Positions 6,976 to 40,004 of a stretch of DNA of 64,000 nt are shown here, in pieces; positions within the stretch are counted from its first letter, which is position 1; the number at the start of each line of letters is the position of its first letter. Position numbers and translations under genes: made by a program. The DNA lies in NCBI GenBank assembly GCA_003336485.1, contig QENH01000201.1, forward strand, positions 10,704-74,703, read 5' to 3'. Origin of the DNA: Candidatus Methanophagales archaeon (GTDB taxonomy: Archaea; Halobacteriota; Syntropharchaeia; Alkanophagales; Methanospirareceae). Below the pieces are notes generated by a model. The model made no database searches and was not told the origin of the DNA. It saw only the letters and a program-made list of their open reading frames with translations.

Positions 6976-7266
6976 ATGATGAAAATGTCATCGCTGATGT
7001 TGAGCAATAAGAAAGTTGTGGACACGGAAGGTGGGGAAGTGGGAGTGTTACATGACATAGTAGCAGATGCTGGAACTGGAATACTAACAGAACTCGTAGT
7101 TAAACCGGCTGCTGAGCTCGACACAAGCAAGTTCAAAACGGATGACGGTTATCTCTTTATACCTTTTGATACAGTTACAGCAATAAAAGATATCATAGTA
7201 GTGGATATTAAGCAGATACGAGAACATGTACGGGCTGCAACAGCTCAAAAATCAGTGGCTTTTTGA
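6976..7266 (+). CDS. PRC-barrel domain protein
   Basis: 96 aa; pattern of small archaeal PRC-barrel proteins (VVDTEGGEVGVLHDIV...VVD). Confidence 0.5.
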   Translation: MMKMSSLMLSNKKVVDTEGGEVGVLHDIVADAGTGILTELVVKPAAELDTSKFKTDDGYLFIPFDTVTAIKDIIVVDIKQIREHVRAATAQKSVAF

Positions 7267-20165: not shown

Positions 20166-22151
20166 ATGGATGATAACAAATATATAGGGCATTTTACGGA
20201 ACTCGTGGGATTGGAACGCGAGGAGCAGATGCGGCGGCATGAAGAGGAGATGCAGCGGCTGAGTGCTCGGGAACGGGAAGATAGAGGTAGAGCCTTTCTA
20301 AAGATGAGAGGGAAATCTCAGGACCTGGGACTGGGCGGAAAGCATATGGTGAAGTTTAGAAAACAAACTCAGGGTTCCTCATTACCGGAAAGCGAAATAG
20401 AAGTTGGAGATCTCGTACTGATAAGTAAAACAAGCCTGTGGGATGAGGACAACCCGCTGGGTACGGTAGCAGAGAAGACTTCGTATGCAATCACAATTGC
20501 ATTTGATAATGTGCCACCCAGTTTTGTATATCGAAAAGACCTCAGAATCGACCTTTTTGTTAATGACATTACCTTTCAAAGGATGCTCGAAGCGTTAAAG
20601 CAATTTAAAAGATTACCGCGTTGGCGTAAGGACAAACTACTCGGTAATACGACTCCTGAGTTCACTCATGCAGATGAACTAGAATTCTTTAATACGAAAT
20701 TGAACAAAAGCCAACAGGAAGCGGTTGTGAGAAGTTTAGCGGCACGTGACTTCTTCCTCATTCATGGACCGCCGGGAACGGGAAAGACGATAACCTGCGT
20801 TGAGGTCATAGCACAGCTTATTAAGCGTGGTAATAGGATAATAACTGCAGCGGACTCCAACGTGGCTGTGGATAACTTAGTGGAACGATTGGACAGGATA
20901 GGTGTGAACGTGGTACGAATCGGGCATCCGGCACGAATAATACCAGCATTGCGAAGAAGAAGCCTCGATTATCTCGTTCAAGACGAACCGGACTATCGAA
21001 AAGCGCAGGAGTTTCGGAAACGAGCATATGAGCTAAAAGAGCACATGAAACAGCATATCATGCCGGAAATGCGATGGAGACGCGGGTTAAGTGATGACGA
21101 GATAATGCTGCTTGCAAGTGAAGGGGCGACAACAAGGGGAATACCACAGAAGAAAATAGAGGGCATGAAGAAATGGCTTGATTTGAAACATGAACTAGAC
21201 AAGTTATTTGGTGATGCACGAGAACTGGAAGAGCGAGCAATAAGGCGAATTATAAAGGCTGCGACAGTAATTTGCGCAACTAACAGTACTGCGGGCTCAG
21301 AGATACTAAAAGCGGAAAAGTTCGATTTTGCCGTTATTGACGAGGCTACTCAGTCCACCGAACCTTCGGCGTTGATTGCCGTGCTAAAGGCGAAGCGGTT
21401 TATCATGGCTGGGGATCACAAGCAGCTACCACCTACTGTTTTGAACGAGGAGGCGGCATGCAGGAGTTTCACCAAGAGTCTTTTCGAGCGACTTCTGGCG
21501 CTACATGGTGATCGGATACGGGTTATGCTGGATGTGCAGTATAGAATGAACGAAGAGATAGCGGAATTCCCGAATCGAGAGTTCTATGATGGTAAGCTGA
21601 AAACAGAGGAACATATAAAACGGCGTACTCTTAGCGATATACTCCCGGAATCAGTAGATGAAGATAGTGAAGATGTAAAACCATTCTTGTTTATTGATAC
21701 GGGCGATGAGCTTGAGGAACGTGTACGAAGAGGTTCTACATCGAGAGAGAACCCAGGAGAGGCGCAATTGGTTAAGGATATTGCCGAACGACTGTTAAAC
21801 CAGGGTATAAGACCGGAAGATATAGCCGTTATCTCGCCTTATGATGACCAGGTAGCACAGATAAAAAGGATGCTCCGGGTGGAGGGCTTGGAGATAAAGA
21901 CGGTTGATGGGTTCCAGGGCCGGGAGAAGGAAGTAGTTATTGTGTCATTTGTGAGGAGTAACAAATCCGGCACTATTGGGTTCCTTAAGGATTTGAGGAG
22001 GCTTAATGTCTCCATAACGAGAGCGAAACGGAAGTTGGTTTTAATTGGTGATTCCAATACGCTGGAAAGCGAAGGGTGTTATAGACGGCTTGTTGCGTTG
22101 GCGAAGGAGACGGGAGCATATAAGAGTGCAGTCGCAACTAATACTGGGTAA
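20166..22151 (+). CDS. superfamily-1 helicase, Upf1/DNA2-like (AAA_11/AAA_12)
   Basis: 661 aa; Walker A GPPGTGKT, ICATNSTAGS, Walker B AVIDEATQ, motif V VDGFQGREKEVVIVSFVRSN, motif VI ITRAKRKLVLIGD. Confidence 0.85.
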   Translation: MDDNKYIGHFTELVGLEREEQMRRHEEEMQRLSAREREDRGRAFLKMRGKSQDLGLGGKHMVKFRKQTQGSSLPESEIEVGDLVLISKTSLWDEDNPLGTVAEKTSYAITIAFDNVPPSFVYRKDLRIDLFVNDITFQRMLEALKQFKRLPRWRKDKLLGNTTPEFTHADELEFFNTKLNKSQQEAVVRSLAARDFFLIHGPPGTGKTITCVEVIAQLIKRGNRIITAADSNVAVDNLVERLDRIGVNVVRIGHPARIIPALRRRSLDYLVQDEPDYRKAQEFRKRAYELKEHMKQHIMPEMRWRRGLSDDEIMLLASEGATTRGIPQKKIEGMKKWLDLKHELDKLFGDARELEERAIRRIIKAATVICATNSTAGSEILKAEKFDFAVIDEATQSTEPSALIAVLKAKRFIMAGDHKQLPPTVLNEEAACRSFTKSLFERLLALHGDRIRVMLDVQYRMNEEIAEFPNREFYDGKLKTEEHIKRRTLSDILPESVDEDSEDVKPFLFIDTGDELEERVRRGSTSRENPGEAQLVKDIAERLLNQGIRPEDIAVISPYDDQVAQIKRMLRVEGLEIKTVDGFQGREKEVVIVSFVRSNKSGTIGFLKDLRRLNVSITRAKRKLVLIGDSNTLESEGCYRRLVALAKETGAYKSAVATNTG

Positions 22152-22947
22152 GGCTCCCATCCACTTTTGCTCGCCTAACGGCGAACTTAAACGCCATAAT
22201 ACTTAGCGGTAGCATCACTATTGAAAACAATAGTAGAGCAATTATGTCTGGAGCTAAGGCTTCTAAAGAGTATCCTTGCAATAGCGCATGCCGCATAGCA
22301 TTTAATGCATATGTTATGGGCAAGAAGTAAGAGAAGTATTGAAGCCATTGTGGCAGAACAGATATTGGGTATAAGACACCACCGAGTAGGCCGGACAGAG
22401 CGCTAAAAGCCCAGTTTATCGGATCGCCTCGTTTGAGTACCATGATAAAAGATGCCGATATTATCCCTAGACTGCTGAAGCAAATAATAGTCAGAATAAG
22501 AACGAGTATAGCAGCAAAAATATTCGCATTGCCCATATCTACGGCGAACAGAAACACGCCTATCAACAGATAGGCAAGAACCTGAATAGAAGCAAAAATG
22601 AAGTCCCAGAGCGAAGAGAACAAGATTAATACTGAGGCCTTCGTTGGAGTCGCGAGCATTGCTTCCAAAGTGCCCATCATCTGCTCATTCCTGATGCTGC
22701 CTGAGAAGCTTCTCAGTCCGGTCGTCAGATAAGTTGAAAATGCTATGCCAATAAGAACGAAGGAGAAATAATCGCCGCCATAGGGTTCAAGATACGGTAC
22801 GGCTGCGGTTCCAAACATCTTATCAAGGAAATAGAAGGTCAATACCGAGAAAAAAATGCCGAATAGTTGTAATAGAAACGCAAAGCGATAGCTTGTTGCG
22901 ATTATAAAATCCCTTTTGATGAATGTCAGTGCCTTTTTCGTTATCAT
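22138..22947 (-). CDS. ABC-2 type transporter permease
   Basis: Six predicted TM segments, co-oriented just downstream of the ABC ATPase. ORF track starts at 23022, but the likely start is MITKKALTFIKRDF. Confidence 0.7.
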   Translation of the reverse strand: MITKKALTFIKRDFIIATSYRFAFLLQLFGIFFSVLTFYFLDKMFGTAAVPYLEPYGGDYFSFVLIGIAFSTYLTTGLRSFSGSIRNEQMMGTLEAMLATPTKASVLILFSSLWDFIFASIQVLAYLLIGVFLFAVDMGNANIFAAILVLILTIICFSSLGIISASFIMVLKRGDPINWAFSALSGLLGGVLYPISVLPQWLQYFSYFLPITYALNAMRHALLQGYSLEALAPDIIALLLFSIVMLPLSIMAFKFAVRRAKVDGSLTQY

Positions 22948-22990
22948 GCATCTCCTCCAGTTTCCTTTACTCATCCACTCATTCACCCAT

Positions 22991-23986
22991 TCACTCATAA
23001 ATAAGTTGAGAGAAAATATCATTGATAACTATTTCTTTAGTGCTACAAGCATGTATTTGACCGCCGGTATTAACAATCATTGCAATTATTCGTGGTAGGA
23101 CGGATTCTGTATTAGAAAGCTGAATATCTAAGGTGACTGCATCAGAAGATGCATGCGTTGAGAACTCAATAACGCCATTTAAATCACGCAATTGGTCAAG
23201 CACGCTATTAGAAAGGTTTTTCACTTTAATAGCGTATATCTCGCGCTTCTCTATCATATCTCTTAGTTCGTTTAGCGTTCCATAGGCTTTAAATGTACCT
23301 CTGTTGATTATTGCAATTCTATCGCATATTTGTTCCGCTTCCTCCAAGTGATGAGTGGAAAGAAAAACCGTCTTTCCTTGTTCCTTTACCAATCGCTCTT
23401 TGATAAACGCCCTTAAATTCTGTGCTGCACTTGGGTCCAAGCTTTTGGTTGGCTCGTCCATAAGCAGAATTTCAGGCTCGTTAAGCAAGCCCCTTGCGAT
23501 TGCCATTTTTTGTTTCATGCCTGTAGAATAGCTATAGAATTTATCATCCGCCTTGTCTTCCAAGCCAACGAAATTCAATACATCGTTTACCCGCTTTTGT
23601 GCTACGGAAGCGGAGGAGAAATTATGGAGTGAAGCGAAGAAGATCATATTTTGGCGGCCAGTAAGTCGCCAGTAAAAGCTTCGCTCTTCGCTTGCCACAA
23701 GACCTATGGATGCCTTTACCCCCTCTTCTTCTTTTGTGACTTCATAACCATTTACATATGCTGTGCCGCTGGTGGGTAAAACCAACGTGCATAATACCTT
23801 TATTAAGGTGGTCTTGCCTGCGCCGTTGGGGCCAAGGATACCGAACAAATCACCTCTTCTGATTTTCAGGTTTACATTATCTAATGCAATTACCTCTTTC
23901 TTCTTGAGCGGATGCAATAACCCACTGAATCCCCCTGGCGGTATGAACTTCTTTGTTAGATTAAATGTCTCAATGGCGTATTCCAT
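22991..23986 (-). CDS. ABC transporter ATP-binding protein
   Basis: 331 aa; Walker A GPNGAGKTT, signature YSTGMKQK, Walker B LLMDEPT, H-loop LSTHH. Confidence 0.9.
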   Translation of the reverse strand: MEYAIETFNLTKKFIPPGGFSGLLHPLKKKEVIALDNVNLKIRRGDLFGILGPNGAGKTTLIKVLCTLVLPTSGTAYVNGYEVTKEEEGVKASIGLVASEERSFYWRLTGRQNMIFFASLHNFSSASVAQKRVNDVLNFVGLEDKADDKFYSYSTGMKQKMAIARGLLNEPEILLMDEPTKSLDPSAAQNLRAFIKERLVKEQGKTVFLSTHHLEEAEQICDRIAIINRGTFKAYGTLNELRDMIEKREIYAIKVKNLSNSVLDQLRDLNGVIEFSTHASSDAVTLDIQLSNTESVLPRIIAMIVNTGGQIHACSTKEIVINDIFSQLIYE

Positions 23987-24044
23987 CTTCCCTCATCACG
24001 CTAATCCACGTAATTATTTAAGGACATATCCACATATAAAACTG

Positions 24045-25232
24045 ATGCTAAACTTGTCGCCAGAAGATACCGTTCTGTTATGCTGCACGAGAACGAGCAT
24101 GAATAAAACCACCATATATAAACTCAAAGAGGCTTTAAGTAGACGATTGAACTGGAATCATATCTTAGAAAATGCTCTGCAACATGGTATTGCACCCTTA
24201 TTATATCACAATTTAAGTGAGATGGCTGATGTGCCAGAAGAGGTTATGGAACATCTGCGAATGCAGTATAATGCGAATCTTGCTCGGAACATGTTAGTTT
24301 ACAATGAGCTGAGCAATGTTTTAAATGCGTTTGAACACGCAGGGATAGAGGTGGTTGTTCTAAAGGGTGCTGCGCTTGCAGAGACGGTTTATCAAGATAT
24401 AGGTTTGAGACCTTTTAGTGACGTTGACCTTTTGGTTAGAAAGAAGGATTTGCAGAGGGCAAAAAAGAAGCTGGTTGAGCTGGGCTATATATTGGATGAG
24501 GATGTCTCGCCGGAGAGGTATAACGAGGATTTCGGTTGTGATTTGTATTATGCCGGCAAAGTAAATGTCCTGGAGATTCACTGGGATATAATGCGGAAGA
24601 CTAAAAGTGACAGATATGCGAGGATCAAAATAGAACATATCTGGGAAAGAGCAGTACCAGCGAAGATAGCAGGTGCTGATACACGCATGATGTCGCCGGA
24701 AGATATGCTGTTACACTTTTGTGTGCACCTACCAAAGCATCGCTATAATCGGTTAATCTGGCTATGTGACGTTTTAGAAGTTATAGAGCATACAGATATT
24801 GATTGGGGATATGTGCTAGAGAGCGCCAAAAAATACCGGACAATGGCGTATATGTACTATGGTCTACATTTTACGGATGTGCTATTAGGTTGTGATATAC
24901 CCGAAAAGGTACTAAACGCGCTGAAGCCGCATCGGCCCGAGATAATGGTGCTGAGCACGGTATTAAAAGATGTCTTGTCGCGCGAGCGGAAGATAATGCC
25001 GATTCTCAATTTGATGAAGTTATTGCTGATAGATAGATTTCAGGATAGAGTGAGATATTTATGTGAATATGTATTCCCACCAGTGGACTCGTTAGCACGT
25101 ATGTATTCGGTTTCGGGAAAAAAGGTGTATCTTTATTATTTCGTGCATCCCGTCTACGTGTGGCTTGAGACAGGCAAGCGCCTTATGGCAATCGTCAGTT
25201 CGAGAGCAAAGAAGCGTTACCGGTGGTTCTGA
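24045..25232 (+). CDS. putative nucleotidyltransferase (NTP_transf_5-like, family often found in RiPP/lasso clusters)
   Basis: ~396 aa from the ATG at 24045. The ORF-track extension from 23763 overlaps the ABC gene and reads as nonsense. GAALAETVYQDIGLRPFSDVDLLV matches the G...R.xxDxDLLV nucleotidyltransferase signature; helical C-terminal domain. Confidence 0.5.
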   Translation: MLNLSPEDTVLLCCTRTSMNKTTIYKLKEALSRRLNWNHILENALQHGIAPLLYHNLSEMADVPEEVMEHLRMQYNANLARNMLVYNELSNVLNAFEHAGIEVVVLKGAALAETVYQDIGLRPFSDVDLLVRKKDLQRAKKKLVELGYILDEDVSPERYNEDFGCDLYYAGKVNVLEIHWDIMRKTKSDRYARIKIEHIWERAVPAKIAGADTRMMSPEDMLLHFCVHLPKHRYNRLIWLCDVLEVIEHTDIDWGYVLESAKKYRTMAYMYYGLHFTDVLLGCDIPEKVLNALKPHRPEIMVLSTVLKDVLSRERKIMPILNLMKLLLIDRFQDRVRYLCEYVFPPVDSLARMYSVSGKKVYLYYFVHPVYVWLETGKRLMAIVSSRAKKRYRWF

Positions 25233-25253: not shown

Positions 25254-25766
25254 TTATGTTTTATATACGACGGTAAAAAAGAGTTTCATAATTCTCCTCG
25301 CAATCCGATTCCCGTGCTTGAGATAATAAACCGAGCACGAAAAGAACGTTAGCATGAGATTGATAAACATCCCAAATCCGTTATTTAGTCTGATTATTCT
25401 GGTTCCTTTTCGTATTGCAATGACCTTGCCAATAACGTGTTCAGAACGGACGATCTCAGCAGTCGTTGTATTATCACCTTTTTGAAGAAAAGATAAACTA
25501 TCATATTTGCGAATGACCCTATGAACGATGAATTTATCGAGATTTTTGAACACGATAATGTCTCCAACCCGGATTTCAGCGGGTTTAACTGATTGAACCA
25601 GCACCTTATCACCGATTTGTATTAAAGGAATCATACTTCCGGAAAGAACAGTGAGCCACAACTTCTGCTTTTGGTTATACAGATCTTCCCAGAGGCCAAT
25701 GATTGCGTTTTGTGATAATTTCGGCTCTTGATCTAAATTCCCGTTGTTGTTGGTATAGCTTTGCAT
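25254..25766 (-). CDS. signal peptidase I, archaeal/eukaryal Sec11-SPC18 type (S26B)
   Basis: 170 aa; box B LSGSMIPLIQIGD, box C/D GDIIVFKNLDKFIVHRVI (His-type), box E KGDNTTT, C-terminal TM. Confidence 0.75.
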   Translation of the reverse strand: MQSYTNNNGNLDQEPKLSQNAIIGLWEDLYNQKQKLWLTVLSGSMIPLIQIGDKVLVQSVKPAEIRVGDIIVFKNLDKFIVHRVIRKYDSLSFLQKGDNTTTAEIVRSEHVIGKVIAIRKGTRIIRLNNGFGMFINLMLTFFSCSVYYLKHGNRIARRIMKLFFTVVYKT

Positions 25767-28882: not shown

Positions 28883-29400
28883 CTATTTTTATCTTTTGAT
28901 CCGTTGTTGCCACATCATGCGTACAATATCCTGCTTTAACAGCAACAACTTCATTCCAGCTTTTTTTCATAAATACCATGCTTTTTTCCTCCTTTTTTTC
29001 TTTGACTTTAACTTGAACATGAACAATTCAGAACAGAACCACTTACATAGTTATTCCAAATTGCTATAACGTCATTTGTATCTATAATGCCATTATCAAG
29101 TGCCGTGTCTGCTGCCCATTTGTTCTTTAAAGATATACCTGCAGTGTAACAATCCCAAACGGCTATAACATCCGTTGTGTCAACGCTACCATCTTCATTC
29201 GGATCTCCGCATATCCACTTCTTGGTCCTGAAGTTATTGCCCTCATTACTCTCACTCACCGTATTATTGCAATCTGCACATACTGTTATGTTATCCTCTA
29301 AAGGTGTATATACCCACATATAATCGAAACATCCAATATAACTCTCGTTATGTGATAACGCCTCAGTTACGCAATCGTATGCCACTTCAGTACCATCGAC
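28883..29400. repeat. cassette repeat: 5' leader of gene A plus the 3' CARDB-like/dockerin module of gene B (partner 32617-33150)
   Basis: Intergenic 28883-29007 vs 32617-32760 and coding 3' ends 29008-~29330 vs 32761-~33085 are >90% identical (the last ~110 aa of B and C are near-identical); identity decays further into the beta-helix region. Confidence 0.85.
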
Positions 29401-32400: not shown

Positions 32401-32616
32401 GCCATCCTTGCCATTGAACTCGATGCAGGTGCCGTCATGACCGATTATGTCTGCAGTGAGCATAACCTCGTCACCATAGCTTGCACTCTGTATCTTCGTG
32501 TTGCAGTCTGAGCAGTTGACGCAGGTCGTCAACGCATTTACTGAGGGTACCAATACCAGCATAAAAATGACGAGTGCCAATGCCATTCCCAATTTTATCC
32601 GTTCTTCTCTTCCCAT
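29008..32616 (-). CDS. giant secreted parallel beta-helix protein with CARDB-like domain and C-terminal type-I dockerin
   Basis: 1202 aa; signal peptide; dozens of PbH1-like rungs; C-terminus [19 protein letters not shown]...[17 protein letters not shown] is two dockerin-type Ca-binding repeats; ends NCSCSS. Confidence 0.75.
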   Translation of the reverse strand: MGREERIKLGMALALVIFMLVLVPSVNALTTCVNCSDCNTKIQSASYGDEVMLTADIIGHDGTCIEFNGKDGITFNGGGHIISGDGDFSGFGIYLSSDSDDNTLKNCEITGFRYGIELFKASNNTIQNITAYSNRDAGITIFYSTANTIRDCILQENSHYDFYFRPNSLSECNNRLINVTGSGGRPIAFYNQSVNLQDQVFSALYLCNADNSVLNNITIRGSDSLKNNGLRLFYTDNTNLTDIVSSNNFCGVLLDNADTNKLQNIKCNNNHHQGIYVCYCSFNTLESTETNSNSQCGIYLFHSPSNKLTHIASGTNSFAGVYVDSSSSTIINNSYIRNNVDGGINIKAAGANLIHNNYFCNAKNINFAGTTVYANDWNIPKTLETNIVGGSYLGGNYWATPSGTGFSEMCTDTDGDGICDDPYILTTNNIDLLPLTKPEVPPRTIYVNEIGWWIEPDPVNPSATPIQSAVSNANAGDTIIVHDGTYTENVDVLEQLTIRSANGSANCIVSAADIADHVFDIYMGHVNISGFTIRGGATEGKAGIYLNKGVSHCRISNNNCTQNHRGISLYFADSNTIIDNTADSNCWYGIYLYKSDNNHVINNSARFNEIYMGICITYSDYNYLVGNTANHNGWEGIRLYHSDNSVVSGNNVNYNNLTDVGTGLLSWASNNAIMTDNIARQNAYGIYLYSASSNNTVINNIASECEAHGILVYQSSNATICDNDANNNGYHGIFVYHSPTSNITICNNTASNNFYHGIFAAYGPSNLKIMGNTMINNGVSDTLGCGIYMGAGSGAIISDNYIAENTASNQAHGIKVFSFTNVAIHGNTIVNNCDYGFMLDSVSGSGTMAGLASGIEADDDDMPVIENEGVAAAQPTALALPDGDYSSAMLPPRSRPVGAGFPTGVNVSENMITDNADGIWVNVSDNVMIAGNIVTNNGIGVNLTSSDDNSIYNNYFDNTNNAYDDGTNEWNTTSTSGENIIGGSWLGGNYWGDYIGVDNNEDGLGDTMRPYNSSGNIKQGGDWHPLVEVATSLPDLKITGIWVCWPENCTICYNVTNVGTGTAQAGHNTSLLVDGTEVAYDCVTEALSHNESYIGCFDYMWVYTPLEDNITVCADCNNTVSESNEGNNFRTKKWICGDPNEDGSVDTTDVIAVWDCYTAGISLKNKWAADTALDNGIIDTNDVIAIWNNYVSGSVLNCSCSS

Positions 32617-32760: not shown

Positions 32761-35472
32761 TTAACCTGAACATGAGCAATTCAGAACAGAACCACTTACA
32801 TAGTTATTCCAAATTGCTATAACGTCATTTGTATCTATCACGCCATTATCAAGTGCCGTGTCTGCAGCCCATTTGTTCTTTAAAGGGACGCCTGCAATGA
32901 AATAATCCCAAACGGCTATAACATCCGTTGTGTCAACGCTACCATCTTCATTCGGATCTCCGCATATCCACTTCTTGGTCCTGAAGTTATTGCCCTCATT
33001 ACTCTCACTCACAGTATTATTACAATCTGCGCATACGGTTATGTTATCCTCTAAAGGTGTGTACACCCACATATAATCGAAATATGCGATGTAGCTCTGG
33101 TTATGCTCAAGTGCTACAACTACACAATCGTATGCCCGCATAGTACCGTCAACAGATAGCGAAGTGTCATGCCCAGCCAGAGCGGTTCCAGTTCCTATGT
33201 TCGTTACGTTATAGCATATGGTGCAGTTATCGGGCCAGCAGACCCTTATGTCTGTTACCTTCAAGTCAGGCAGTAATACCGCTTCTTCCGTCAACGGATG
33301 CCTATCCCCTCCCGTTGTTATATTGCCCGACGAGTTATAAGGAAGCAGTGTATTTCCTAAGCCATCGCCATCGTTATCTACGCCCGCATAATCGGACCAA
33401 TAATTCCCGCCAAGATAATGACCGCCGATTATGTTCGTTCCCTCTCTTTTCGTAATGTTCCATGCGTTGTTGCCGTTATCATTAGCATTATTCGTGTTCT
33501 CGAAGTAGTTATTGTAAATCAGGTTATTGCCGCTCGAATCGTACAGGTAGATGCCAAATCCGTTGTTCGAGTTCGCAGTGTTGTCCGAGATGTTGTTGTA
33601 GTGCGACTCGGACAAGCCGATGCCAGCCCAGTTGCCCGATGCGGTAATATCGGAAACGTTGCTGTAATCAGCATAGCTGAGATAAATCCCTGCCTTAGCG
33701 TCTTCTGTTGCGCCCGTTACATGGAACCCGGATATATCCACATAATCCGCAGTCACCTCAAAGACATGATCATCAGAATCAGCAGCCTGAACAATTGTAT
33801 CCGCGTGATTACCTGATGTTGATCTTACGGTCAAAGACTTGTAAACAGCCACATTCTCTGTATAAGTCCCCGGATCTACAATAATTGTATGCCCATCCAA
33901 GGTATTGGGGTCATCTATTGCCGCTTGGATAGTTACGAAACTTTCGCTTGTGTTTATATTGTAAATCGGAGGTACTCTAGCCACTATTCTAGTACGTAGA
34001 CAAGCGTTCCAACCTTCGTCTGCCAGATCCGTCCACGAACCGCTATCAGTGTGCCTGATAAAGCTCACATTCGTCTGTATAGGAGGATCAACCACCCCTG
34101 AAAATTCACACTCAATAGGTATAGGGTGACCATAGCCCGGTGTGGTCATCTTAACGCCAACAGTAAATTGCTGACCAGCGTATATTGAAATCGAGTCGCT
34201 CAGTGGTATCGAGTAATAGCCAAACTCTTGACAGTTACCGATTTGATGCGCAAGCTCAGTACCAAAAAAGCCGTCCCAAATATATATTTCATACTGCGCA
34301 TTGTTGCTCGTGGTCCAGAAATCAACATGGGTTAAATCACCAAACTGAATTGCTGTATAGACACTTGCCATCCAAGCACTGTTGTCCCCATAGCCCACAG
34401 AAGCTACGAAGCCTGCCTCATCCCAGTAACGAAGTTCTTCATTCGGGTTGTCATCCGTATATTTAAGATATGCTATTTCATTGACACAACTTGAGTCATA
34501 AGCAAGATAGAAGAAACCATTATTCCCCCAACCTGTTCCCCAACTGTTTTTGGCTATCCAGGCTCCTATTCCTGCATGGCTGGGGTTGGGATGTGGAACA
34601 GCATCGTCCCAACCGATAATAGATACTAAGTGGTTAATGTTTCCAGAGCATGGATAGTTGTCGTAAATATACCCATAAGTCGAATTCCAGTATAGATAAC
34701 TTGGATCGTGCTGGTAAGCCACTATAACGGGTTCCTGATTATATACCGCATTTTTTATCGCGTCTATTTGTGACCCGTCATTCGTTACAAGTCTATATCC
34801 GTTAACTTTCTTAATTGGAGGGCAATCATCACATACACACGAGCCATCACAGTTCAATGCGTAGCCGCCGTAAGGATTGCATGTTTCCGAAACAGAACCT
34901 TTCCTGATAAAAACCTCGCTTGCAAGCCAACTCCAGCCACCTGCATTACAGGGGTCATCCGAGTCGTCATACATATAAACCCATGAACGGTCAACGCACA
35001 AGGCTACGCTCTGCTCAGAAAAATTGTATGCTGCTCCTTCATCCATTAGAACCGCCGATTCTAATACCGAGGTAGTGCCAAAAACCCAACAAGTCTCACA
35101 AGGGTCCTGGTCCTTGACCGTTGTCACCTTACCGTAATCGCGCCAGTCGAAGCTGCTGGGGAGTGCGTATGGCGCCGGCAACCCTTTAACTGGAAGCTGA
35201 TCCAGGTGACTTAAATCCACGGGTGGTGGAATATAGCCATAAAATGTCTCGGTTGGATTATCCCGATGTGCTTCAAAATCGGGATTTAGTGGAGCCAATT
35301 GAGGTTTTTCCGCTGCTCCGCCTCCATCTCGGCTATCGTCAGTAGCCGCGCTAATTCCAGCAGACAATGTTAGTGCACTTGTAACTACGGTCAGTATCAA
35401 TATTGCCGCTGTCAATATGGCTATTGGTTTTTTCATCGCATTCATATTCTCTACTATAAAACAATTGTGCAA
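32761..35472 (-). CDS. secreted papain-like (C1) cysteine peptidase fused to beta-helix, CARDB-like domain and C-terminal dockerin
   Basis: 903 aa; signal peptide/TM anchor; C1 active-site blocks [11 protein letters not shown] (Cys), [10 protein letters not shown] (His), [16 protein letters not shown] (Asn); C-terminal ~110 aa near-identical to gene B including the dockerin repeats. Confidence 0.75.
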
Positions 35473-35630: not shown

Positions 35631-37376
35631 TTACGAGGGCGCACAGAATTCCGGAACATTCTCTATCACATGATACACACCATCCGCATCGTAGTATTCC
35701 ACCATCCATAGTATTCCTTCCTCAGGAGGCGGTAGTGGCACGTAGGTCATATCCACCGCAAGCACGAAGAAGTCCGAACTCCAAGCGCTTCCGGAAGCTG
35801 GTATATCTCCCAACGTCACTTCTCCGTCCACGATGCCCACATTCGCCGGGGAATCGGTGATGGTTGCAGTTACGCCGTAAGCGTTACCGGGTCCCCAGTT
35901 CACGAAGTGAACATCCGTCCAGCTCCTGAATAGTGCCGGGAACGGGTCCCATTCATAGCTTGGGACATGGTATGCAGACCAGCGATATTCATCCGGGCAG
36001 AGATTCGCCTCGCCAACAATGACTTTCCATTCCTTAGTCACTTGGTTCGAGGTTATGGTGACCTCTTGGCTATTCACAAAACTCGCTTCGATAACATCCG
36101 TGCCAGGCAAGGTCCCTGTGTAGGTAAACGTTGCTTCTCCATTGACGTCAGTTGTATCTGTGTCTGTCTGCCCATCATGTGGACCTGAAACGATAGTGAA
36201 GGTCACTTCACGGTCCACGATCGGGTTCCCTAAGTCATCCTGCACCGTTGCGGTAACTGTATGCTCGCTGCCTACCGGATTGGTTGCAGAGGTTGGAGTT
36301 AACAGAATACCTTCTCCCACGACTGCTGTTGTAGACGCAAGGAACAGCGATGCAAAGAAGATGTTGTCGTCGTTCGATGGATTTATGGTATCAACGAATA
36401 TATTGGTATCTCCATCCGATACGAATGGTATGAGATTGTACAATTCGTCGTCATAACGGGGACTGGTACTATCACCATTTGCGTAAGGATCGGGTGGGTT
36501 GGCATTGCTATCTCCCACGCCTCCGACCGTCAGAAGTGCACCGTTGTTCGCTGATCCATCATCTTGACCACCGGCTGATGATGTCAAACGCACGCCATTA
36601 ACATCCACTTCGCTGTGTTGGCCATAATACGAGGAAGATTGGTAGCCAAATGATATCCCTAGAGACATATCGAGCACTAGGTTCGGGTCGCTCGTATCGA
36701 TCGGTTCAGCTAATCCAATTGCGAAAGTATCGCCCGCAACATCCTGCGCTCCGAAAAGAAGCACAATTGTGTTTTCGGTCGCCTGGTTCGGATCATCGAA
36801 GATTACCGCTAGGATTGAACCGTCAAGATTGATCGTTTCGATGATCTCAAGATCCACAATTCCCGCTGGTGCCGCATCAACGATGGGCGCTACGATTGCA
36901 GTCACATCAGACCATGCACTGTTTGCATTCACGGGATCATGGCTATCCCAGTTGACGTTGTTGCCGTTGATCTTTACGGCTCCGTCCGGCAATGGCCCGC
37001 CACAACTGCCCCAGACATCGGCTGCCGCCATATAGGCTGACCTAACCGTTGCTCCGGCTGGCTTTTCCACCTGGATAGTTCCAGCAGAGGTAAATGTGCC
37101 GAGGCCATCTATCGAGAGACTGATCAGTCCGGTTTCTGTAATCTCCGGATCGATTGAGCGCGTCGGTGTCGATAGTTTACTTGTAGCCATATCAGTTCCT
37201 GGTACATTTGGGTCCGCAGATGGTTTAGTGTCCTCCAATGACGAAGGTATCTTGCCAATAATATTCGATTTACTTGGGACCGCATATACCGGTGTAGCAA
37301 ATGCTGATAAAATCAACACAATTACTAAACAAATGCACGCACCTGTTACATAGCTTTTTCTTTCCATTTTTTTCAT
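35631..37376 (-). CDS. secreted Ig-like (Big) domain protein with the C-terminal module shared with gene A
   Basis: 581 aa; signal peptide; Big-like domain (VTATVQDDLGNPIVDREVTFTIVSGPHDG); C-terminal ~130 aa ~60% identical to the C-terminus of 25931-28882. Confidence 0.65.
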   Translation of the reverse strand: MKKMERKSYVTGACICLVIVLILSAFATPVYAVPSKSNIIGKIPSSLEDTKPSADPNVPGTDMATSKLSTPTRSIDPEITETGLISLSIDGLGTFTSAGTIQVEKPAGATVRSAYMAAADVWGSCGGPLPDGAVKINGNNVNWDSHDPVNANSAWSDVTAIVAPIVDAAPAGIVDLEIIETINLDGSILAVIFDDPNQATENTIVLLFGAQDVAGDTFAIGLAEPIDTSDPNLVLDMSLGISFGYQSSSYYGQHSEVDVNGVRLTSSAGGQDDGSANNGALLTVGGVGDSNANPPDPYANGDSTSPRYDDELYNLIPFVSDGDTNIFVDTINPSNDDNIFFASLFLASTTAVVGEGILLTPTSATNPVGSEHTVTATVQDDLGNPIVDREVTFTIVSGPHDGQTDTDTTDVNGEATFTYTGTLPGTDVIEASFVNSQEVTITSNQVTKEWKVIVGEANLCPDEYRWSAYHVPSYEWDPFPALFRSWTDVHFVNWGPGNAYGVTATITDSPANVGIVDGEVTLGDIPASGSAWSSDFFVLAVDMTYVPLPPPEEGILWMVEYYDADGVYHVIENVPEFCAPS

Positions 37377-37500
37377 TTCACCTCCTAATTTTTTGGGGTA
37401 TTTATATAGCGCCCCTCCTCGGCGCCCTCTCCCTATTTCTCAGCCATCTAATGGATTCGCACCATACAGATGACATCTTTTTCATTGCTTTTCGTTCTGG

Positions 37501-37541
37501 CAAAAAAAAATAACGCCAAGGCGAGTGAACTCACGCCTCCT
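37501..37541 (-). terminator. hairpin + T9 terminator-like element immediately after the 46-aa ORF
   Basis: On the - strand: GGCGTGAGTTCACTCGCC then TTGGCGTTATTTTTTTTT, ~35 nt after the peptide stop codon. Confidence 0.5.
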
Positions 37542-37564
37542 CGACGCTCTTATTTGGTCACCAT

Positions 37565-37705
37565 TCATCCTTCATTTCCTCCGCCTCCACAGCATAGATT
37601 AAAAAATGGGTCCATCTGCGGAATAGGCCCTTCATATTGACCATAAGCTCCGATTTCGATCGTTTCTGACTTGACCTCAGGCTTATTGTATTCTTCTCGT
37701 TTCAT
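37565..37705 (-). CDS. 46-aa candidate RiPP precursor peptide (MKREEYNKPEVKSETIEIGAYGQYEGPIPQMDPFFNLCCGGGGNEG)
   Basis: Unannotated short ORF. Its ATG overlaps the last 23 nt of the rSAM/SPASM gene. A canonical Shine-Dalgarno AAGGAGGTGA sits 12 nt upstream. Stop is followed by a hairpin + T-run. C-terminal Cys-Cys-Gly4 core-like segment. Confidence 0.45.
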   Translation of the reverse strand: MKREEYNKPEVKSETIEIGAYGQYEGPIPQMDPFFNLCCGGGGNEG

Positions 37706-38822
37706 CTTCTTTTTTTATCACCTCCTTTTGGTTTTTTGTAATACCGCCCGGCTCAAAGCCGGGACTCTGCATTACCGTGACTTGCGAAGATCCCCGCCAT
37801 TGTGCGTACCTACATGCGCTCGGCGATGCCCCCACTATATCGCCTGTTTCAAGATAAACCACACCGGGACATCTAATGCAGTACTGTGCCAAATCACACT
37901 TGGAACACACGGGTAAATCAGCGGAAGTTAAATTCCGCAATCGTTTCAACTCTTCGCTTGGCTGCATATGCCATATCTCTTTAAAACTCCTTTCTCTCAA
38001 ATTACCTACCGCCATAGGCATCATCACGCATGGACACACAATCCCGCTTGGTGATACGCTGCAAGCTGCGTTCCCAGCTTTGCATTTGAATCTATGCGCA
38101 GGATCTTTTTCGCCTATTTCTATTAGATAACTGAGATCAAAATCGTGTCTCGGCAGATATCTCTCCATGTCCTCAAAGGATAGGTCGTACTGTTGAGGTT
38201 CTAACGAGCCGTTCTTCATCGGCGCGATTCCTGCACTTATCCTGTGACGGACACCTAACTGTTCACACATAGCTTTGAGATCGTCGGATTCATGGATATT
38301 CAAATTCATAAGTGATGTTTTTACGGTAACTTCTATTCCCGCCTTGACCAGATCCTTGATAGCAGCAACGGTGCGTTCAAAAGAGCCCGCTACCCGAGTA
38401 ATGTGATCATGCGTTTTTGCTGTTGCGCCATAGAGACTGAGTTCAAACTTAATCAGCTTCAGCGTCCTTATTTCGTCCATCATTTCAGCGGTAATCAACG
38501 CGCCATTGGTCATAAACGTAAGGAAAAAGCCTTTTCTACTGGCATATCTCGCAATCTCAAACAAGTCATCACGAGTGAAAATCTCGCCACCTGTAAAGGA
38601 AAGGTAAAAGGTACCCATATCCACTAGTTGGTCTATTATGTCTTTAATCTCCTCTGACGACAATTCAACGTCATTATCATTTACCATATAACAATGCCTG
38701 CATTTTAGATTGCATTTACTTGTAAGTTCCATTTGAACAGCATAAGGTATATTTTCCCGAATGCAGGTCGCAACCAACTTTTTACCCAAACCCGTAGAGT
38801 ATTCAACGGTCATCGCCACCAC
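37683..38822 (-). CDS. radical SAM / SPASM-domain peptide-maturase-like enzyme
   Basis: 379 aa; CNLKCRHCY (CxxxCxxC) rSAM cluster near the N-terminus; C-terminal SPASM Cys constellation (CKAGNAACSVSPSGIVCPC...CSKCDLAQYCIRCPG). Confidence 0.85.
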   Translation of the reverse strand: MVAMTVEYSTGLGKKLVATCIRENIPYAVQMELTSKCNLKCRHCYMVNDNDVELSSEEIKDIIDQLVDMGTFYLSFTGGEIFTRDDLFEIARYASRKGFFLTFMTNGALITAEMMDEIRTLKLIKFELSLYGATAKTHDHITRVAGSFERTVAAIKDLVKAGIEVTVKTSLMNLNIHESDDLKAMCEQLGVRHRISAGIAPMKNGSLEPQQYDLSFEDMERYLPRHDFDLSYLIEIGEKDPAHRFKCKAGNAACSVSPSGIVCPCVMMPMAVGNLRERSFKEIWHMQPSEELKRLRNLTSADLPVCSKCDLAQYCIRCPGVVYLETGDIVGASPSACRYAQWRGSSQVTVMQSPGFEPGGITKNQKEVIKKEDETRRIQ

Positions 38823-39129
38823 CTTCTGCTTCTGTTTCTGCTTCGGCGTTTCTAATCTGCAAAATCTTTTTCGCTACCAGTTGCTCTGCAAATTCCTGTA
38901 CATCTGCCTGTGCTACTTCAAGACTTACATCAAAACGCTCACAAGTCAGCGATATTATTTCTTTTATCCTTCTTGTACCATCGGCTAATTCCCAGATAGC
39001 ACTTCCTACCTTGTTAAGCGTGTGAATCGCACGCCCATCTGCAGTTAGAATAACGACTCCATCGCCTATCTCTCGCCATACTAATTCATCCGACCTACGT
39101 AGGTAGCTATCTAACGGAAACATATTCAC
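38803..39129 (-). CDS. PqqD-family protein (RiPP recognition element)
   Basis: 108 aa; PqqD pattern (VILTADGRAIHTLNKVGSAIWELADGTRRIKEIISLTCERFDVSLEVAQADVQEFAEQL); overlaps the upstream kinase (ATGA) and the downstream rSAM gene by 20 nt. Confidence 0.7.
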   Translation of the reverse strand: MNMFPLDSYLRRSDELVWREIGDGVVILTADGRAIHTLNKVGSAIWELADGTRRIKEIISLTCERFDVSLEVAQADVQEFAEQLVAKKILQIRNAEAETEAEGGGDDR

Positions 39130-40004
39130 ACCCCCATTTCCAGGTTATCAATAGAATCCCAGAAACTTTTATCCGGCAAAAACAGCAGTTCGTAAAATGG
39201 CACCTCGCTTGCTACATCGACACAGAATCCCATCATCTCCCGAAACGTTTCTTTCCTATTCGTCGAAAGCAAAGTATCTGAATACACAACTTCTCTCACG
39301 AATCTTGCTACAAAATCTCTTTCACTGATTTTTTTTATGATATTCGCCTCCCCATGTCGGATTAAAAATATTGCATGCAACGGCACAGATCCATTGCTAA
39401 TATCTAAAAAGTCACCACGAATCGGAGTGCTACCAACCGTATAATGCCCATTTACTTTGTTGACAATCACCGATTCGTCATTCAAAATCGTGTAATCCAA
39501 ATCAGAGGATAATTTAGCTATCGTTGACTTTCCGCTTTCCGAAGGTCCGGAGAATAGGTAGCCAATTCCTTCTCTTGAAACTGCGCAGCCATGTATCAAG
39601 AAGTTATTTCTGCTATCATTTTTTTCTTTCAATAGTGTATAATATACCTGAAACAGAAACTGCTCAAAAATACGTACGCTCCGTTCAGAGAAAAGTGCAT
39701 TTTTTGCATTTATTCGGCATTGCTTTTTTCCCGGATCCAGAGTCCCGGTTATCAAGCCAGAATGGAAATCGAAATTATTCCCGTCAACGGTCTTGGACAT
39801 AAGGAGAGAATTAGGTAGGTTAATCTCTTCTTTATGCATAACGATGTTTACATCTATGGTGAGGTCAGGCGCATTTTCAGATAGGAAGCCCTTATAATAC
39901 GCACGTACCGATGCGCAATAGTCAGGGTCTTTAAACCTTAACGAGCAACATACATCGCCTATTTGCAATCGGCATTCCGTATATTCTATATCGGAATTGG
40001 CCAT
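39126..40004 (-). CDS. HPr kinase/phosphorylase C-terminal-domain-like kinase (RiPP-associated kinase family)
   Basis: 292 aa; HGCAVSREGIGYLFSGPSESGKSTIAKL matches the HprK P-loop region (HG..V...G.G.L..G.SG.GKS); first gene of an overlapping three-gene operon. Confidence 0.65.
   Translation of the reverse strand: MANSDIEYTECRLQIGDVCCSLRFKDPDYCASVRAYYKGFLSENAPDLTIDVNIVMHKEEINLPNSLLMSKTVDGNNFDFHSGLITGTLDPGKKQCRINAKNALFSERSVRIFEQFLFQVYYTLLKEKNDSRNNFLIHGCAVSREGIGYLFSGPSESGKSTIAKLSSDLDYTILNDESVIVNKVNGHYTVGSTPIRGDFLDISNGSVPLHAIFLIRHGEANIIKKISERDFVARFVREVVYSDTLLSTNRKETFREMMGFCVDVASEVPFYELLFLPDKSFWDSIDNLEMGV

What the first reader, a model, noticed from the sequence alone, without database searches (positions are those of the whole stretch)
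37565..37705. Unannotated 46-aa ORF with a perfect Shine-Dalgarno and dedicated terminator: candidate precursor peptide
MKREEYNKPEVKSETIEIGAYGQYEGPIPQMDPFFNLCCGGGGNEG is below the ORF-track size cut-off. Its ATG lies inside the rSAM gene's last codons. It is preceded by AAGGAGGTGA (full anti-16S complement) at 12-nt spacing and followed ~35 nt later by a GC hairpin + T9. The charged N-terminal leader-like part and the Pro/Cys-Cys/Gly4 C-terminal core-like part fit the leader/core layout of rSAM-modified peptides. Only two Cys, so it is not a classic SCIFF or sactipeptide.
Basis: seen in the sequence. Interest (0 to 1): 0.7.

Follow-up and report, generated by a model that had tools for sequence, protein, structure and literature searches.

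The report
Conserved radical-SAM precursor peptide in ANME-1
The 46-codon ORF is a real, conserved gene for the likely substrate peptide of the adjacent radical-SAM/PqqD enzymes, and it belongs to an unnamed family of more than 100 such peptides found in methane-oxidising archaea and anaerobic bacteria.

Summary

- **The ORF.** ORF 37705..37565 (-) encodes MKREEYNKPEVKSETIEIGAYGQYEGPIPQMDPFFNLCCGGGGNEG. It follows a ScmC-like P-loop protein, a PqqD and a radical-SAM/SPASM gene. The contig is from Methanophagales (ANME-1), and GenBank already lists the ORF as a hypothetical protein.
- **Conservation.** All 13 sequence-distinct related loci whose rSAM is at least 44% identical carry a homologous ORF directly after the rSAM. 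One bacterial genome has it on the opposite strand, still beside the same enzymes.
- **Coding signals.** The start codon sits five codons before an invariant Tyr in all 17 ORF copies examined. An AGGAGGTGA-type SD precedes most archaeal copies. Leader pN/pS is 0.10-0.39.
- **Family.** A profile search found 126 peptide clusters of 28-71 aa, all unnamed and without a Pfam domain. They share two blocks: a leader Y-x-K-P-x-[IMV]-x-[ST]-E-x-[IV]-E-[IL]-G (a YxxP-type RRE motif) and a C-terminal P-[IV]-x-Q-L-Q-P-F-F-G-L-C-(C|PPC).
- **Window variant.** The window peptide has PFFNLCC plus a Gly-rich tail.
- **Accessory genes.** A signal-peptidase-I homologue, a PF14907 nucleotidyltransferase and an ABC-2 exporter lie 12-15 kb downstream and are syntenic in relatives.

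The chemistry is unknown. Cys-based cross-linking is the leading guess. No curated family or paper describes these peptides.

The parts
37565..37705 (-). Precursor peptide gene (46 aa plus stop). The leader is about residues 1-22 (Y6-N-K-P9 ... I-G-A-Y-G22). The conserved block P-I-P-Q-M-D-P-F-F-N-L-C-C is followed by the tail GGGGNEG.
   Evidence: Homologues sit in all related loci. Leader pN/pS is 0.10-0.39. The profile search finds 126 clusters.
37718..37726 (-). Shine-Dalgarno AGGAGGTGA (within AAAAGGAGGTGAT), 12 nt upstream of the ATG.
   Evidence: 3 hits in the window against 0.31 expected. GGAGGTG(A)/GGAGGT is present upstream of 11 of 12 archaeal loci and absent from most BMS3Bbin16 copies; spacing is 5-14 nt.
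37738..37775 (-). Stable RNA hairpin just 5' of the A-rich spacer and SD. It overlaps the non-conserved C-terminal tail of the rSAM ORF.
   Evidence: -19.6 kcal/mol, z -4.1, 0 of 200 shuffles. Equivalent hairpins with different stem sequences occur in L001, L090, L002, L096 and L005. RNAalifold covariation is weak because the alignment is poor. No Rfam match.
37502..37548 (-). 3' hairpin (37548-37512) plus a T9 run (37510-37502): a terminator-like or attenuator-like element after the peptide gene.
   Evidence: L089 has the homologous hairpin plus T6. It is absent in L001, L091 and L093, where the next gene follows.
37683..38822 (-). Radical SAM/SPASM enzyme and putative maturase. It has CxxxCxxC plus seven invariant C-terminal Cys. 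The true start is probably near MTVEY.
   Evidence: invariant C23/C27/C30 and C233, C251, C292, C295, C301, C304, C323. The nearest solved structures are SkfB and PqqE.
38803..39129 (-). PqqD-family protein (RiPP recognition element), the putative leader-binding chaperone.
   Evidence: (PF05402, E 1.1e-16). Natural PqqD-rSAM fusions occur among homologues.
39126..40004 (-). ScmC-like / HPr-kinase-related P-loop protein (Walker A GPSESGKST), a putative tailoring kinase.
   Evidence: (TIGR04249 ScmC 43 bits, below the cutoff; weak HprK matches). Homologues are hit by PF27840:ScmC.
25254..25766 (-). Archaeal-type signal peptidase I homologue (S24/S26), a candidate leader peptidase.
   Evidence: Pfam S24; TIGR02228, 72.8 bits, above the 51.85 cutoff. 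It is syntenic in L005, L096, L091 and L007/8.
23763..25232 (+). PF14907 (NTP_transf_5) nucleotidyltransferase, a putative tailoring enzyme. The listed ORF start probably over-extends.
   Evidence: E 2.3e-64. It is syntenic in L005, L093, L096, L007/8 and L100.
22138..23986 (-). DrrAB-like ABC-2 exporter (ATPase 23986-22991, permease 23022-22138).
   Evidence: It is syntenic in L093, L007/8, L006 and L100.
35631..37376 (-). Secreted Big_1 protein whose ~125-aa C-terminal domain recurs directly downstream of the peptide in every archaeal locus where that region was recovered. A second copy of the domain is at 25931-28882 (-). Its role in the system is uncertain.
   Evidence: (blastp E 1e-28 to 1e-63 against 10 proteins).

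Best explanation
ORF 37705..37565 (-) is a translated gene. It encodes the precursor (substrate) peptide of an RRE-dependent radical-SAM/SPASM peptide-maturation system in an ANME-1 archaeon.

Shown:
- The peptide is the fourth gene of the operon ScmC-like P-loop protein, PqqD, rSAM/SPASM, peptide.
- It belongs to a family of more than 100 short peptides with a conserved leader and a conserved C-terminal PFFGLC(C/PPC) block.
- The family co-occurs with the same enzyme set in archaea and bacteria, whatever the gene order.

Inferred mechanism:
1. A strong SD drives translation. Hairpins on both sides of the small cistron, and a T9 run after it, favour an abundant short transcript.
2. The leader (YNKP, then an alternating hydrophobic/acidic strand) binds the PqqD RRE, which presents the peptide to the rSAM/SPASM enzyme.
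3. The enzyme modifies the conserved C-terminal block. The most likely reaction is cross-linking of the two Cys (thioether of the sacti-/ranthipeptide type). This step is a guess, at about 40%.
4. The HprK-like ScmC protein and the PF14907 nucleotidyltransferase add tailoring groups. The analogy is to the kinase and nucleotidyltransferase that phosphorylate and glycosylate some lasso peptides.
5. The signal-peptidase-I homologue removes the leader. The predicted site is after Gly22, which fits the (-3,-1) rule.
6. The ABC-2 transporter exports the product.
For: **ORF, SD and terminator.** All are present as described.

**Positional conservation.** A homologous ORF follows the rSAM in L001, L002, L005, L006 (5-6 tandem copies), L007/8 and L089-L099, with hmmsearch E 1e-13 to 1e-24. 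There is only one hit in the window itself.

**Translation signals.** In all 17 ORF copies the start codon lies 5 codons before the invariant Tyr. The SD is present in 11 of 12 archaeal loci.

**Selection.** Leader pN/pS is 0.10-0.39, while pS reaches about 1.

**Family size.** The profile search gives 126 clusters, all 28-71 aa, with no Pfam domain and named only as hypothetical. The exhaustive phmmer search gives 18 representatives. Of 120 clusters, 119 have YxxP, 97 have the P-F-F-G-L-C block and 104 have exactly two Cys.

**Linkage independent of gene order.** L100/L101 encode the peptide convergently beside rSAM-PqqD-ScmC plus the ABC-2 transporter and PF14907.

**Fusions.** PqqD-rSAM fusions occur among the homologues.

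**Literature support.** YxxP is an established RRE recognition motif (PMC12710340). The HprK-like kinase plus nucleotidyltransferase tailoring precedent is in PMC8498205.

**Enzyme features.** The rSAM has the CxxxCxxC motif and seven invariant SPASM Cys. The signal peptidase I homologue passes its NCBIfam cutoff. Leader positions Y+14 (V/A/T) and Y+16 (G/A) fit the (-3,-1) rule.
Against: - There is no expression, peptide-level or biochemical evidence of any kind.
- No modification has been observed, and the chemistry is not predictable from sequence. The rSAM scores similarly, and far below cutoff, against MftC, GeoRSP, ScmE, WgkB, StsB, AlbA and PqqE models.
- The SD-to-ATG spacing of 12 nt after GGTGA (15 nt after GGAGG) is long.
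- The 3' hairpin is only marginally better than shuffles (z -1.7) and is not conserved beyond the closest relative.
- The conserved core across phyla is atypical for antimicrobial RiPPs and would also fit a cofactor-like product.
- The accessory genes lie 12-15 kb away, behind four large secreted-protein genes.
- The window peptide deviates from the consensus (N for G, and a 7-residue tail).
Confidence: 0.85

Rival explanations
1. The peptide is the precursor of an intracellular cofactor-like or metal-binding small molecule, in the manner of PqqA/PQQ or MftA/mycofactocin, rather than an exported RiPP natural product. The rSAM would cross-link the conserved block, and most of the peptide would then be trimmed away.
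For: - The C-terminal block P-[IV]-x-Q-L-Q-P-F-F-G-L-C-(C/PPC) is nearly invariant from archaea to Chloroflexota and Desulfobacterales. PqqA and MftA cores are conserved in the same way.
- MftC and PqqE models are among the better full-length matches.
- Vicinal Cys or CPPC motifs suit metal or redox chemistry (inference).
Against: - An ABC-2 exporter and a signal-peptidase-type protease are part of the conserved module.
- One lineage (BMS3Bbin16) carries 5-6 tandem precursor genes with different two-Cys cores, which is typical of secreted RiPPs.
- No cofactor-dependent oxidoreductases are conserved in the neighbourhood.
- All PQQ and mycofactocin models score far below their cutoffs.
Confidence: 0.12
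2. The ORF encodes a genuine conserved small protein, but it is not the rSAM substrate. It could be a substrate only of the HprK-like kinase or the nucleotidyltransferase, or a regulatory or immunity peptide of the locus. In that case the rSAM would act on something else, such as the adjacent secreted proteins.
For: - No direct evidence links the peptide to the rSAM.
- Every archaeal locus where the downstream region was recovered also carries secreted proteins with a shared, Cys-containing C-terminal domain right after the peptide.
- The kinase and NTase pair act on peptides without any rSAM in lasso systems (PMC8498205).
Against: - The peptide co-occurs with PqqD and the rSAM in bacterial loci that lack the secreted-protein domain.
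- The leader has the YxxP motif expected of a PqqD/RRE client.
- More distant rSAM relatives (27-43% identity) also have Cys-containing small ORFs with a Y-x-K-P leader directly after the rSAM.
Confidence: 0.06
3. The ORF is a chance reading frame. What is conserved is only DNA or RNA, namely the rSAM 3' end, hairpins and terminator.
For: - Short ORFs are abundant by chance.
- Conserved hairpins flank the ORF.
Against: - Amino-acid motifs persist where synonymous sites are saturated; pN/pS is 0.10-0.39.
- The start codon and frame are conserved in all 17 ORF copies.
- 126 peptide clusters match the profile at E down to 1e-19 in a database of 5.8 billion proteins.
- The ORF is conserved where it no longer overlaps the rSAM or lies on the other strand.
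Confidence: 0.02

Closest known systems
SynChlorMet (SCM) cassette, NCBIfam TIGR04248-TIGR04251 (ScmC, ScmD, ScmE, ScmF)
   Same: - It combines an HprK-like ScmC-family protein, a PqqD homologue and an rSAM/SPASM enzyme.
- The window's kinase-like protein has ScmC as its best NCBIfam match.
- Homologues in related loci are hit by Pfam PF27840:ScmC.
   Different: - All four SCM models score far below their cutoffs: 43/125, 27.5/100, 115/400 and 86/400.
- The operon has one rSAM gene, not two.
- A defined precursor family is present here. From my recollection of the TIGRFAMs text, which I have not verified, no SCM precursor had been identified.
GeoRSP system, NCBIfam TIGR04302/TIGR04303/TIGR04352/TIGR04355
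   Same: It also combines a PqqD-family chaperone, an rSAM/SPASM enzyme and HprK-related kinases. It is computationally defined and uncharacterised.
   Different: Scores are 36.6/100, 119/400, 17/200 and 17.5/200, so it is not a member.
Sactipeptide and ranthipeptide systems (SkfB, AlbA, PapB, SCIFF)
   Same: - They use an rSAM/SPASM maturase on a Cys-containing precursor with a leader recognised through an RRE.
- SkfB is the nearest solved structure by sequence (E 4e-15).
   Different: - This peptide has only two Cys, at the extreme C-terminus.
- The RRE is a separate PqqD protein.
- AlbA, StsB and SkfB models score far below cutoff.
- There are extra kinase-like and nucleotidyltransferase genes.
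- A thioether has not been demonstrated.
Phosphorylated and glycosylated lasso peptides (paeninodin, pseudomycoidin)
   Same: - The leader has a YxxP recognition motif bound by a PqqD-like RRE (PMC12710340).
- The cluster has an HPr-kinase homologue plus a nucleotidyltransferase as tailoring enzymes, and an ABC exporter (PMC8498205).
   Different: - There is no lasso cyclase and no B2 protease.
- An rSAM/SPASM enzyme takes their place.
- The window peptide has no C-terminal Ser, which is the site phosphorylated in lasso precursors.
PqqA/PqqD/PqqE and MftA/MftB/MftC cofactor pathways
   Same: - Both use a short precursor, a PqqD-type chaperone and an rSAM/SPASM enzyme.
- The modified C-terminal region is conserved.
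- PqqA also has an aromatic-x-K-P leader start (own knowledge).
   Different: - PqqE scores 94/381, MftC 130/265 and PqqD 42.9/46, all below cutoff.
- There is no conserved E-x3-Y or C-terminal GVY motif.
- Exporter and signal-peptidase genes are present.

Membership tests
RRE-dependent rSAM/SPASM RiPP precursor (generic kind) | A short ORF encoded next to a PqqD/RRE protein and an rSAM/SPASM enzyme, and conserved with them across genomes | tested here: met
   The linkage survives gene rearrangement in L100/L101.
RRE-dependent rSAM/SPASM RiPP precursor (generic kind) | A conserved leader carrying an RRE recognition motif | tested here: met
   Y-x-K-P is present in 118-119 of 120 family members, followed by an alternating hydrophobic/acidic strand. 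YxxP is listed as the lasso RRE recognition sequence in PMC12710340. Physical binding was not tested.
RRE-dependent rSAM/SPASM RiPP precursor (generic kind) | The peptide is post-translationally modified by the rSAM enzyme | not testable with these tools
   This needs co-expression and mass spectrometry.
RRE-dependent rSAM/SPASM RiPP precursor (generic kind) | The maturase has a CxxxCxxC motif and a seven-Cys SPASM motif | tested here: met
   Invariant C23/C27/C30 and C233, G246, C251, C292, C295, C301, C304, C323 in 17 homologues. Pfam Radical_SAM and SPASM domains are present.
SynChlorMet cassette (NCBIfam) | ScmC, ScmD and ScmE above their curated cutoffs (125, 100 and 400 bits) | tested here: not met
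   The scores are 43.3, 27.5 and 114.8 bits.
SynChlorMet cassette (NCBIfam) | A second rSAM/SPASM gene (ScmF) | tested here: not met
   The operon has only one rSAM gene.
GeoRSP system (NCBIfam) | GeoRSP rSAM, PqqD and HprK-related kinases A/B above their cutoffs (400, 100, 200 and 200 bits) | tested here: not met
   The scores are 119.1, 36.6, 17.0 and 17.5 bits.
SCIFF / ranthipeptide | A six-Cys C-terminal motif, or Cys-X3-Asp/Asn repeats, with a SCIFF or PapB maturase | tested here: not met
   The peptide has two Cys and gives no NCBIfam hit at E<=1. The PapB model is not among the rSAM's top 25 matches.
Sactipeptide | A Cys-to-C-alpha thioether installed by an AlbA/SkfB/StsB-type maturase | tested here: inconclusive
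   The maturase models score far below cutoff: AlbA 96/850, StsB 110/625 and SkfB 64/300. The thioether chemistry itself cannot be tested here.
Lasso peptide | A lasso cyclase (Asn-synthetase-like) and a B2 transglutaminase-like protease | tested here: not met
   Neither is found among the ORFs of 22-40 kb or in related loci.
PQQ / mycofactocin precursor | A PqqA E-x3-Y or MftA C-terminal GVY motif, with PqqE or MftC above cutoff | tested here: not met
   The motifs are not conserved in the family. PqqE scores 93.8/381 and MftC 130.2/265.

The most novel reading that the evidence does not exclude
This peptide family defines a new RiPP class. Its features are a YxKP leader and a PFFGLC(C/PPC) core, with a seven-gene module of ScmC-like kinase, PqqD, rSAM/SPASM, PF14907 nucleotidyltransferase, signal-peptidase-I-type leader peptidase and ABC-2 exporter.

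If so, the product has a conserved, not yet described modification, such as a Cys-derived cross-link plus phospho- or glycosyl-tailoring. It would be made by ANME-1 and ANME-2 archaea, by Desulfobacterales and by other anaerobes. It might serve a conserved extracellular role, such as metal binding through CC/CPPC, signalling, or interaction with the co-encoded surface proteins that share a novel C-terminal domain.
Probability: 0.3. Interest if true: 0.75.

Novelty: new variant of a known kind. Interest (0 to 1): 0.6.

Why it matters
- **Fills a gap in known cassettes.** From my recollection of the NCBIfam descriptions (unverified), HprK-like + PqqD + rSAM/SPASM cassettes such as SCM and GeoRSP have been catalogued without a recognised substrate. 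This finding supplies a clearly defined precursor family for a related cassette: two conserved blocks and more than 100 members across archaea and bacteria.
- **Makes the chemistry testable.** The product can be pursued by heterologous co-expression of the peptide with its enzymes.
- **Adds to archaeal RiPPs.** Few RiPP systems are known from archaea, and I know of none from uncultured methane-oxidising ANME archaea (own knowledge). A conserved exported peptide in ANME and in sulfate-reducer relatives would be of ecological interest.
- **Helps annotation.** The family is absent from the copies of Pfam and NCBIfam searched here, so a model built from it would improve annotation and RiPP genome mining.

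Tried and rejected
- **Single-peptide word search.** It found only the peptide itself. A profile of peptides recovered from loci was needed.
- **Metagenome scan with the rSAM alignment.** None carries the G-x-Y-G-x-Y leader. Many do have Y-x-K-P/Cys-rich small ORFs after the rSAM. One such locus, L025, also scores far below the SCM and GeoRSP cutoffs.
- **Strict terminator scan.** It did not flag the 3' hairpin.
- **Rfam.** No match in 37400-37900.
- **RNAalifold on the 5' hairpin.** It gave only weak covariation because length variants were misaligned. The case rests on single-sequence folds.
- **Literature searches.** Seven searches found nothing relevant: SynChlorMet; ScmC; HPr kinase + PqqD + radical SAM; ANME-1 + RiPP; HPr kinase + RiPP + SPASM; FFGLC; and GeoRSP/PF14907. 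The paper I tried to fetch by a recalled id, PMC3133131, is not held.
- **PDB sequence search with the ScmC-like protein.** Only E about 0.7 to HPr kinase.
- **E-x3-Y (PQQ-like) motif.** Considered and rejected: the Glu is replaced by G, K or D in relatives.
- **pN/pS rows involving L002.** These are out of register and were ignored.
- **Structure prediction of a PqqD-peptide complex.** Not possible under the tool's input rules.

Full report
**1. Observation**

On the minus strand, ATG 37705 to TGA 37565 encodes the quoted 46-aa peptide. The sequence upstream reads AAAAGGAGGTGA-TAAAAAAAGAAG-ATG. The SD core AGGAGGTGA is at 37726-37718, 12 nt from the ATG. An in-frame TAA directly after the SD leaves this ATG as the only possible start.

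AGGAGGTGA occurs three times in the 64-kb window against 0.31 expected. Two of the three precede the peptide and the next gene. Most long genes in the window have no such SD.

The rSAM ORF runs to 37683, so the peptide ATG lies inside its last codons. Downstream, an imperfect hairpin (37548-37512) is followed by T9 (37510-37502). That fold is only marginally better than shuffles (z -1.7), and the strict terminator scan missed it. The closest relative has the homologous hairpin plus T6 with z -4.1.

The identical peptide is in GenBank as hypothetical protein C5S53_17625 of a Methanophagales (ANME-1) MAG. So it is unnamed rather than unannotated.

**2. Context**

The operon on the minus strand has four genes:
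- a 292-aa P-loop protein (GPSESGKST), whose best NCBIfam match is ScmC of the SynChlorMet cassette, with weak HPr-kinase similarity;
- a 108-aa PqqD protein;
- a 379-aa radical SAM/SPASM enzyme;
- the peptide.

All curated rSAM, PqqD and ScmC models score far below their cutoffs. The nearest solved structures by sequence are SkfB and PqqE. In 17 homologues the CxxxCxxC motif and seven C-terminal Cys are invariant.

Twelve to fifteen kb downstream, behind four large secreted-protein genes, lie three further genes:
- an archaeal-type signal peptidase I homologue, which passes its NCBIfam cutoff at 72.8 against 51.85;
- a PF14907 nucleotidyltransferase;
- a DrrAB-like ABC-2 exporter.

**3. Conservation of the ORF**

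The rSAM has 183 homologues at E<1e-40, ranging from 91% to 33% identity. I recovered DNA for loci with rSAM identity of 89, 79, 76, 76, 70, 65, 63, 63, 60, 56, 48 and 44%. These come from ANME-1, ANME-2, other Halobacteriota, archaeon BMS3Bbin16 and a Desulfobacterales MAG.

Every one of these loci has a homologous small ORF directly after the rSAM. An HMM of the peptides hits them at E 1e-13 to 1e-24. Elsewhere in the six-frame translation of all 100 sources it gives no hit below 1e-3, apart from extra tandem copies in L006.

Further points support a real coding gene:
- The start codon is always five codons upstream of an invariant Tyr.
- GGAGGTG(A) or GGAGGT precedes it in 11 of 12 archaeal loci, though not most BMS3Bbin16 copies, with 5-14 nt spacing.
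- Leader codons give pN/pS 0.10-0.39, while pS approaches saturation (the L002 rows are out of register).
- The overlap with the rSAM stop is seen in the window and L089 but not in L001 or L008. In L001 the same DNA is intergenic. The peptide frame is therefore conserved independently of the rSAM frame.

**4. The family**

A profile of 15 peptides retrieved 126 clusters from 5.8 billion proteins. All are 28-71 aa, without a Pfam domain and named only as hypothetical. Named sources include Methanophagales, Halobacteriota, archaeon BMS3Bbin16 and Chloroflexota. Exhaustive phmmer with the single peptide found 18 representatives at 50% clustering.

The family has two conserved blocks separated by a variable, often Gly-rich linker:
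- a leader, [KR]-E-x-Y-x-K-P-x-[IMV]-x-[ST]-E-x-[IV]-E-[ILV]-G-[VAT]-[YLF]-[GA];
- a C-terminal block, G-P-[IV]-x-Q-L-Q-P-F-F-G-L-C followed by C-x or P-P-C-x.

Of 120 clusters, 119 have YxxP, 97 have the PFFGLC-type block and 104 have exactly two Cys. In 68 clusters a single residue follows the last Cys.

The window peptide is a variant. It has Asn for the Gly (PFFNLCC) and a 7-residue GGGGNEG tail. Similar tails occur in close relatives P0122, P0127 and P0131. The BMS3Bbin16 lineage is the exception to the conserved core: it has 5-6 tandem genes with a uniform leader and different two-Cys loop cores.

In a bacterial genome (contig longer than 1 Mb) the peptide is encoded convergently to rSAM-PqqD-ScmC. 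It sits next to a 155-aa gene, the ABC-2 transporter and PF14907. The linkage therefore does not depend on operon order. PqqD-rSAM fusion proteins also occur among the homologues.

More distant rSAM relatives (27-43% identity) carry small ORFs right after the rSAM. These have a P-Y-x-K-P-x-[IL] leader and 2-4 Cys, and many end in Gly-Ser. An HprK-like gene follows them. These loci also fail the SCM and GeoRSP cutoffs. The window's system therefore belongs to a broad, uncurated superfamily.

**5. Mechanism: what is shown and what is inferred**

Shown:
- the gene is conserved and under purifying selection;
- it is linked to PqqD, rSAM/SPASM and ScmC, and usually to a signal-peptidase homologue, PF14907 and an ABC-2 transporter.

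Inferred:
- **Leader binding.** The YxxP-type leader binds the PqqD RRE. YxxP is the recognised lasso-peptide RRE motif (PMC12710340).
- **Modification.** The rSAM/SPASM enzyme modifies the conserved C-terminal block. The two Cys make a thioether-type cross-link the leading candidate, but sequence similarity does not discriminate between chemistries.
- **Tailoring.** The ScmC-like kinase homologue and the PF14907 enzyme tailor the peptide. The analogy is to the HPr-kinase homologue that phosphorylates lasso precursors and the nucleotidyltransferase that glycosylates the phosphate (PMC8498205). The window peptide lacks the C-terminal Ser used there.
- **Leader removal.** The signal-peptidase homologue removes the leader. 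Leader positions Y+14 (V/A/T) and Y+16 (G/A) fit the (-3,-1) rule and predict cleavage after Gly22.
- **Export.** The ABC-2 transporter exports the product.

The peptide cistron is bracketed by two structures. A stable 5' hairpin lies at 37775-37738 (z -4.1). It is structurally conserved in other archaeal loci with different stem sequences. The 3' hairpin with T9 follows the gene. This arrangement fits a stable, abundant short transcript, but that is untested.

**6. Rivals**

- **Cofactor-like product.** A PQQ- or mycofactocin-style product is suggested by the cross-phylum conservation of the core. The exporter, the signal peptidase and the multi-copy variable-core lineage argue against it.
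- **Not the rSAM substrate.** This cannot be excluded without biochemistry. The leader motif and the linkage in loci lacking other candidate substrates make it unlikely.
- **Chance ORF.** Effectively excluded.

**7. Comparison with known systems, and novelty**

The system works like an RRE-dependent rSAM/SPASM RiPP pathway. It fails the membership tests for SCM, GeoRSP, SCIFF/ranthipeptide, lasso, PQQ and mycofactocin; the sactipeptide test is inconclusive (and the membership table). No Pfam or NCBIfam model hits the peptide, even at E<=1 for NCBIfam. No paper in the searchable library mentions the cassette or the motif.

I rate it a new variant of a known kind. The logic is familiar, but the precursor family, the core motif and the accessory-gene combination are undescribed.

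Noticed in passing
window 35631-37376 (-) aa 442-581; window 25931-28882 (-) aa 852-976; L001 7373-9154; L005 6457-9606; L089 1493-3034; L091 2610-7319 (three genes); L093 4232-5782; L096 2935-5004; L098 2345-5572: In every archaeal locus where the region downstream of the peptide was recovered, the gene or genes directly after it encode large secreted proteins with PKD, Big_1 or TSP3 N-terminal parts. They share a ~125-aa C-terminal domain with no Pfam match (LCPDEYRW...GDIPAGGSAWS.DFF.L.VDM...W.VEYDD..G.HH; blastp E 1e-28 to 1e-63). The domain is absent from the bacterial loci. It could be a partner or cargo of the peptide system, or just a syntenic block.
   Followed up: partly
window 37738-37775 (-); L001 ~7070-7118; L090 ~1503-1537; L002 ~4050-4086; L096 ~2497-2528; L005 ~6047-6084: A stable hairpin (z -3 to -5.2) sits between the rSAM end and the A-rich spacer plus SD of the peptide gene in archaeal loci. 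Stem sequences differ between loci, and in the window the hairpin lies inside the non-conserved tail of the rSAM ORF. There is no Rfam match. It may be an mRNA processing or stability element, or a translational-coupling element.
   Followed up: partly
L006 6129-6696 and 8396-8671 (archaeon BMS3Bbin16): Five to six tandem precursor genes share a near-identical leader (MDKEKYxKPxxxSTDVEIGVYG). Their short cores differ: most have two Cys, one has none (DVKY), and one looks degenerate.
   Followed up: partly
L017, L025, L027, L030, L071, L013, L022 (small ORFs just after the rSAM): More distant rSAM/PqqD/HprK-like cassettes encode peptides with a P-Y-x-K-P-x-[IL] leader and 2-4 Cys. Many have a C-terminal Gly-Ser, which recalls the C-terminal Ser phosphorylated by HprK-like kinases in lasso precursors. 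In L025 the signal-peptidase homologue is fused to a GNAT acetyltransferase.
   Followed up: partly
proteins P0012, P0077, P0090, P0106, P0107, P0109, P0117: These are natural fusions of a PqqD domain to the homologous rSAM/SPASM enzyme. They support a functional coupling between PqqD and the rSAM in this family.
   Followed up: no
window 32761-35472 (-) and 29008-32616 (-): Two very large secreted proteins (papain-like C1 peptidase + lectin-like + NosD/beta-helix + CARDB; and NosD/beta-helix + CARDB) have nearly identical dockerin-like C-terminal ends (...[23 protein letters not shown]...NCSCS). They sit between the peptide operon and the peptidase, NTase and ABC genes.
   Followed up: no
window 37683-37760 (-): The rSAM C-terminal tail beyond ...ACRYAQWR is not conserved among homologues. 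In the window it reads through the 5' hairpin and the SD. In L001 the same DNA is intergenic. The overlap with the peptide ATG therefore looks incidental rather than functional.
   Followed up: partly
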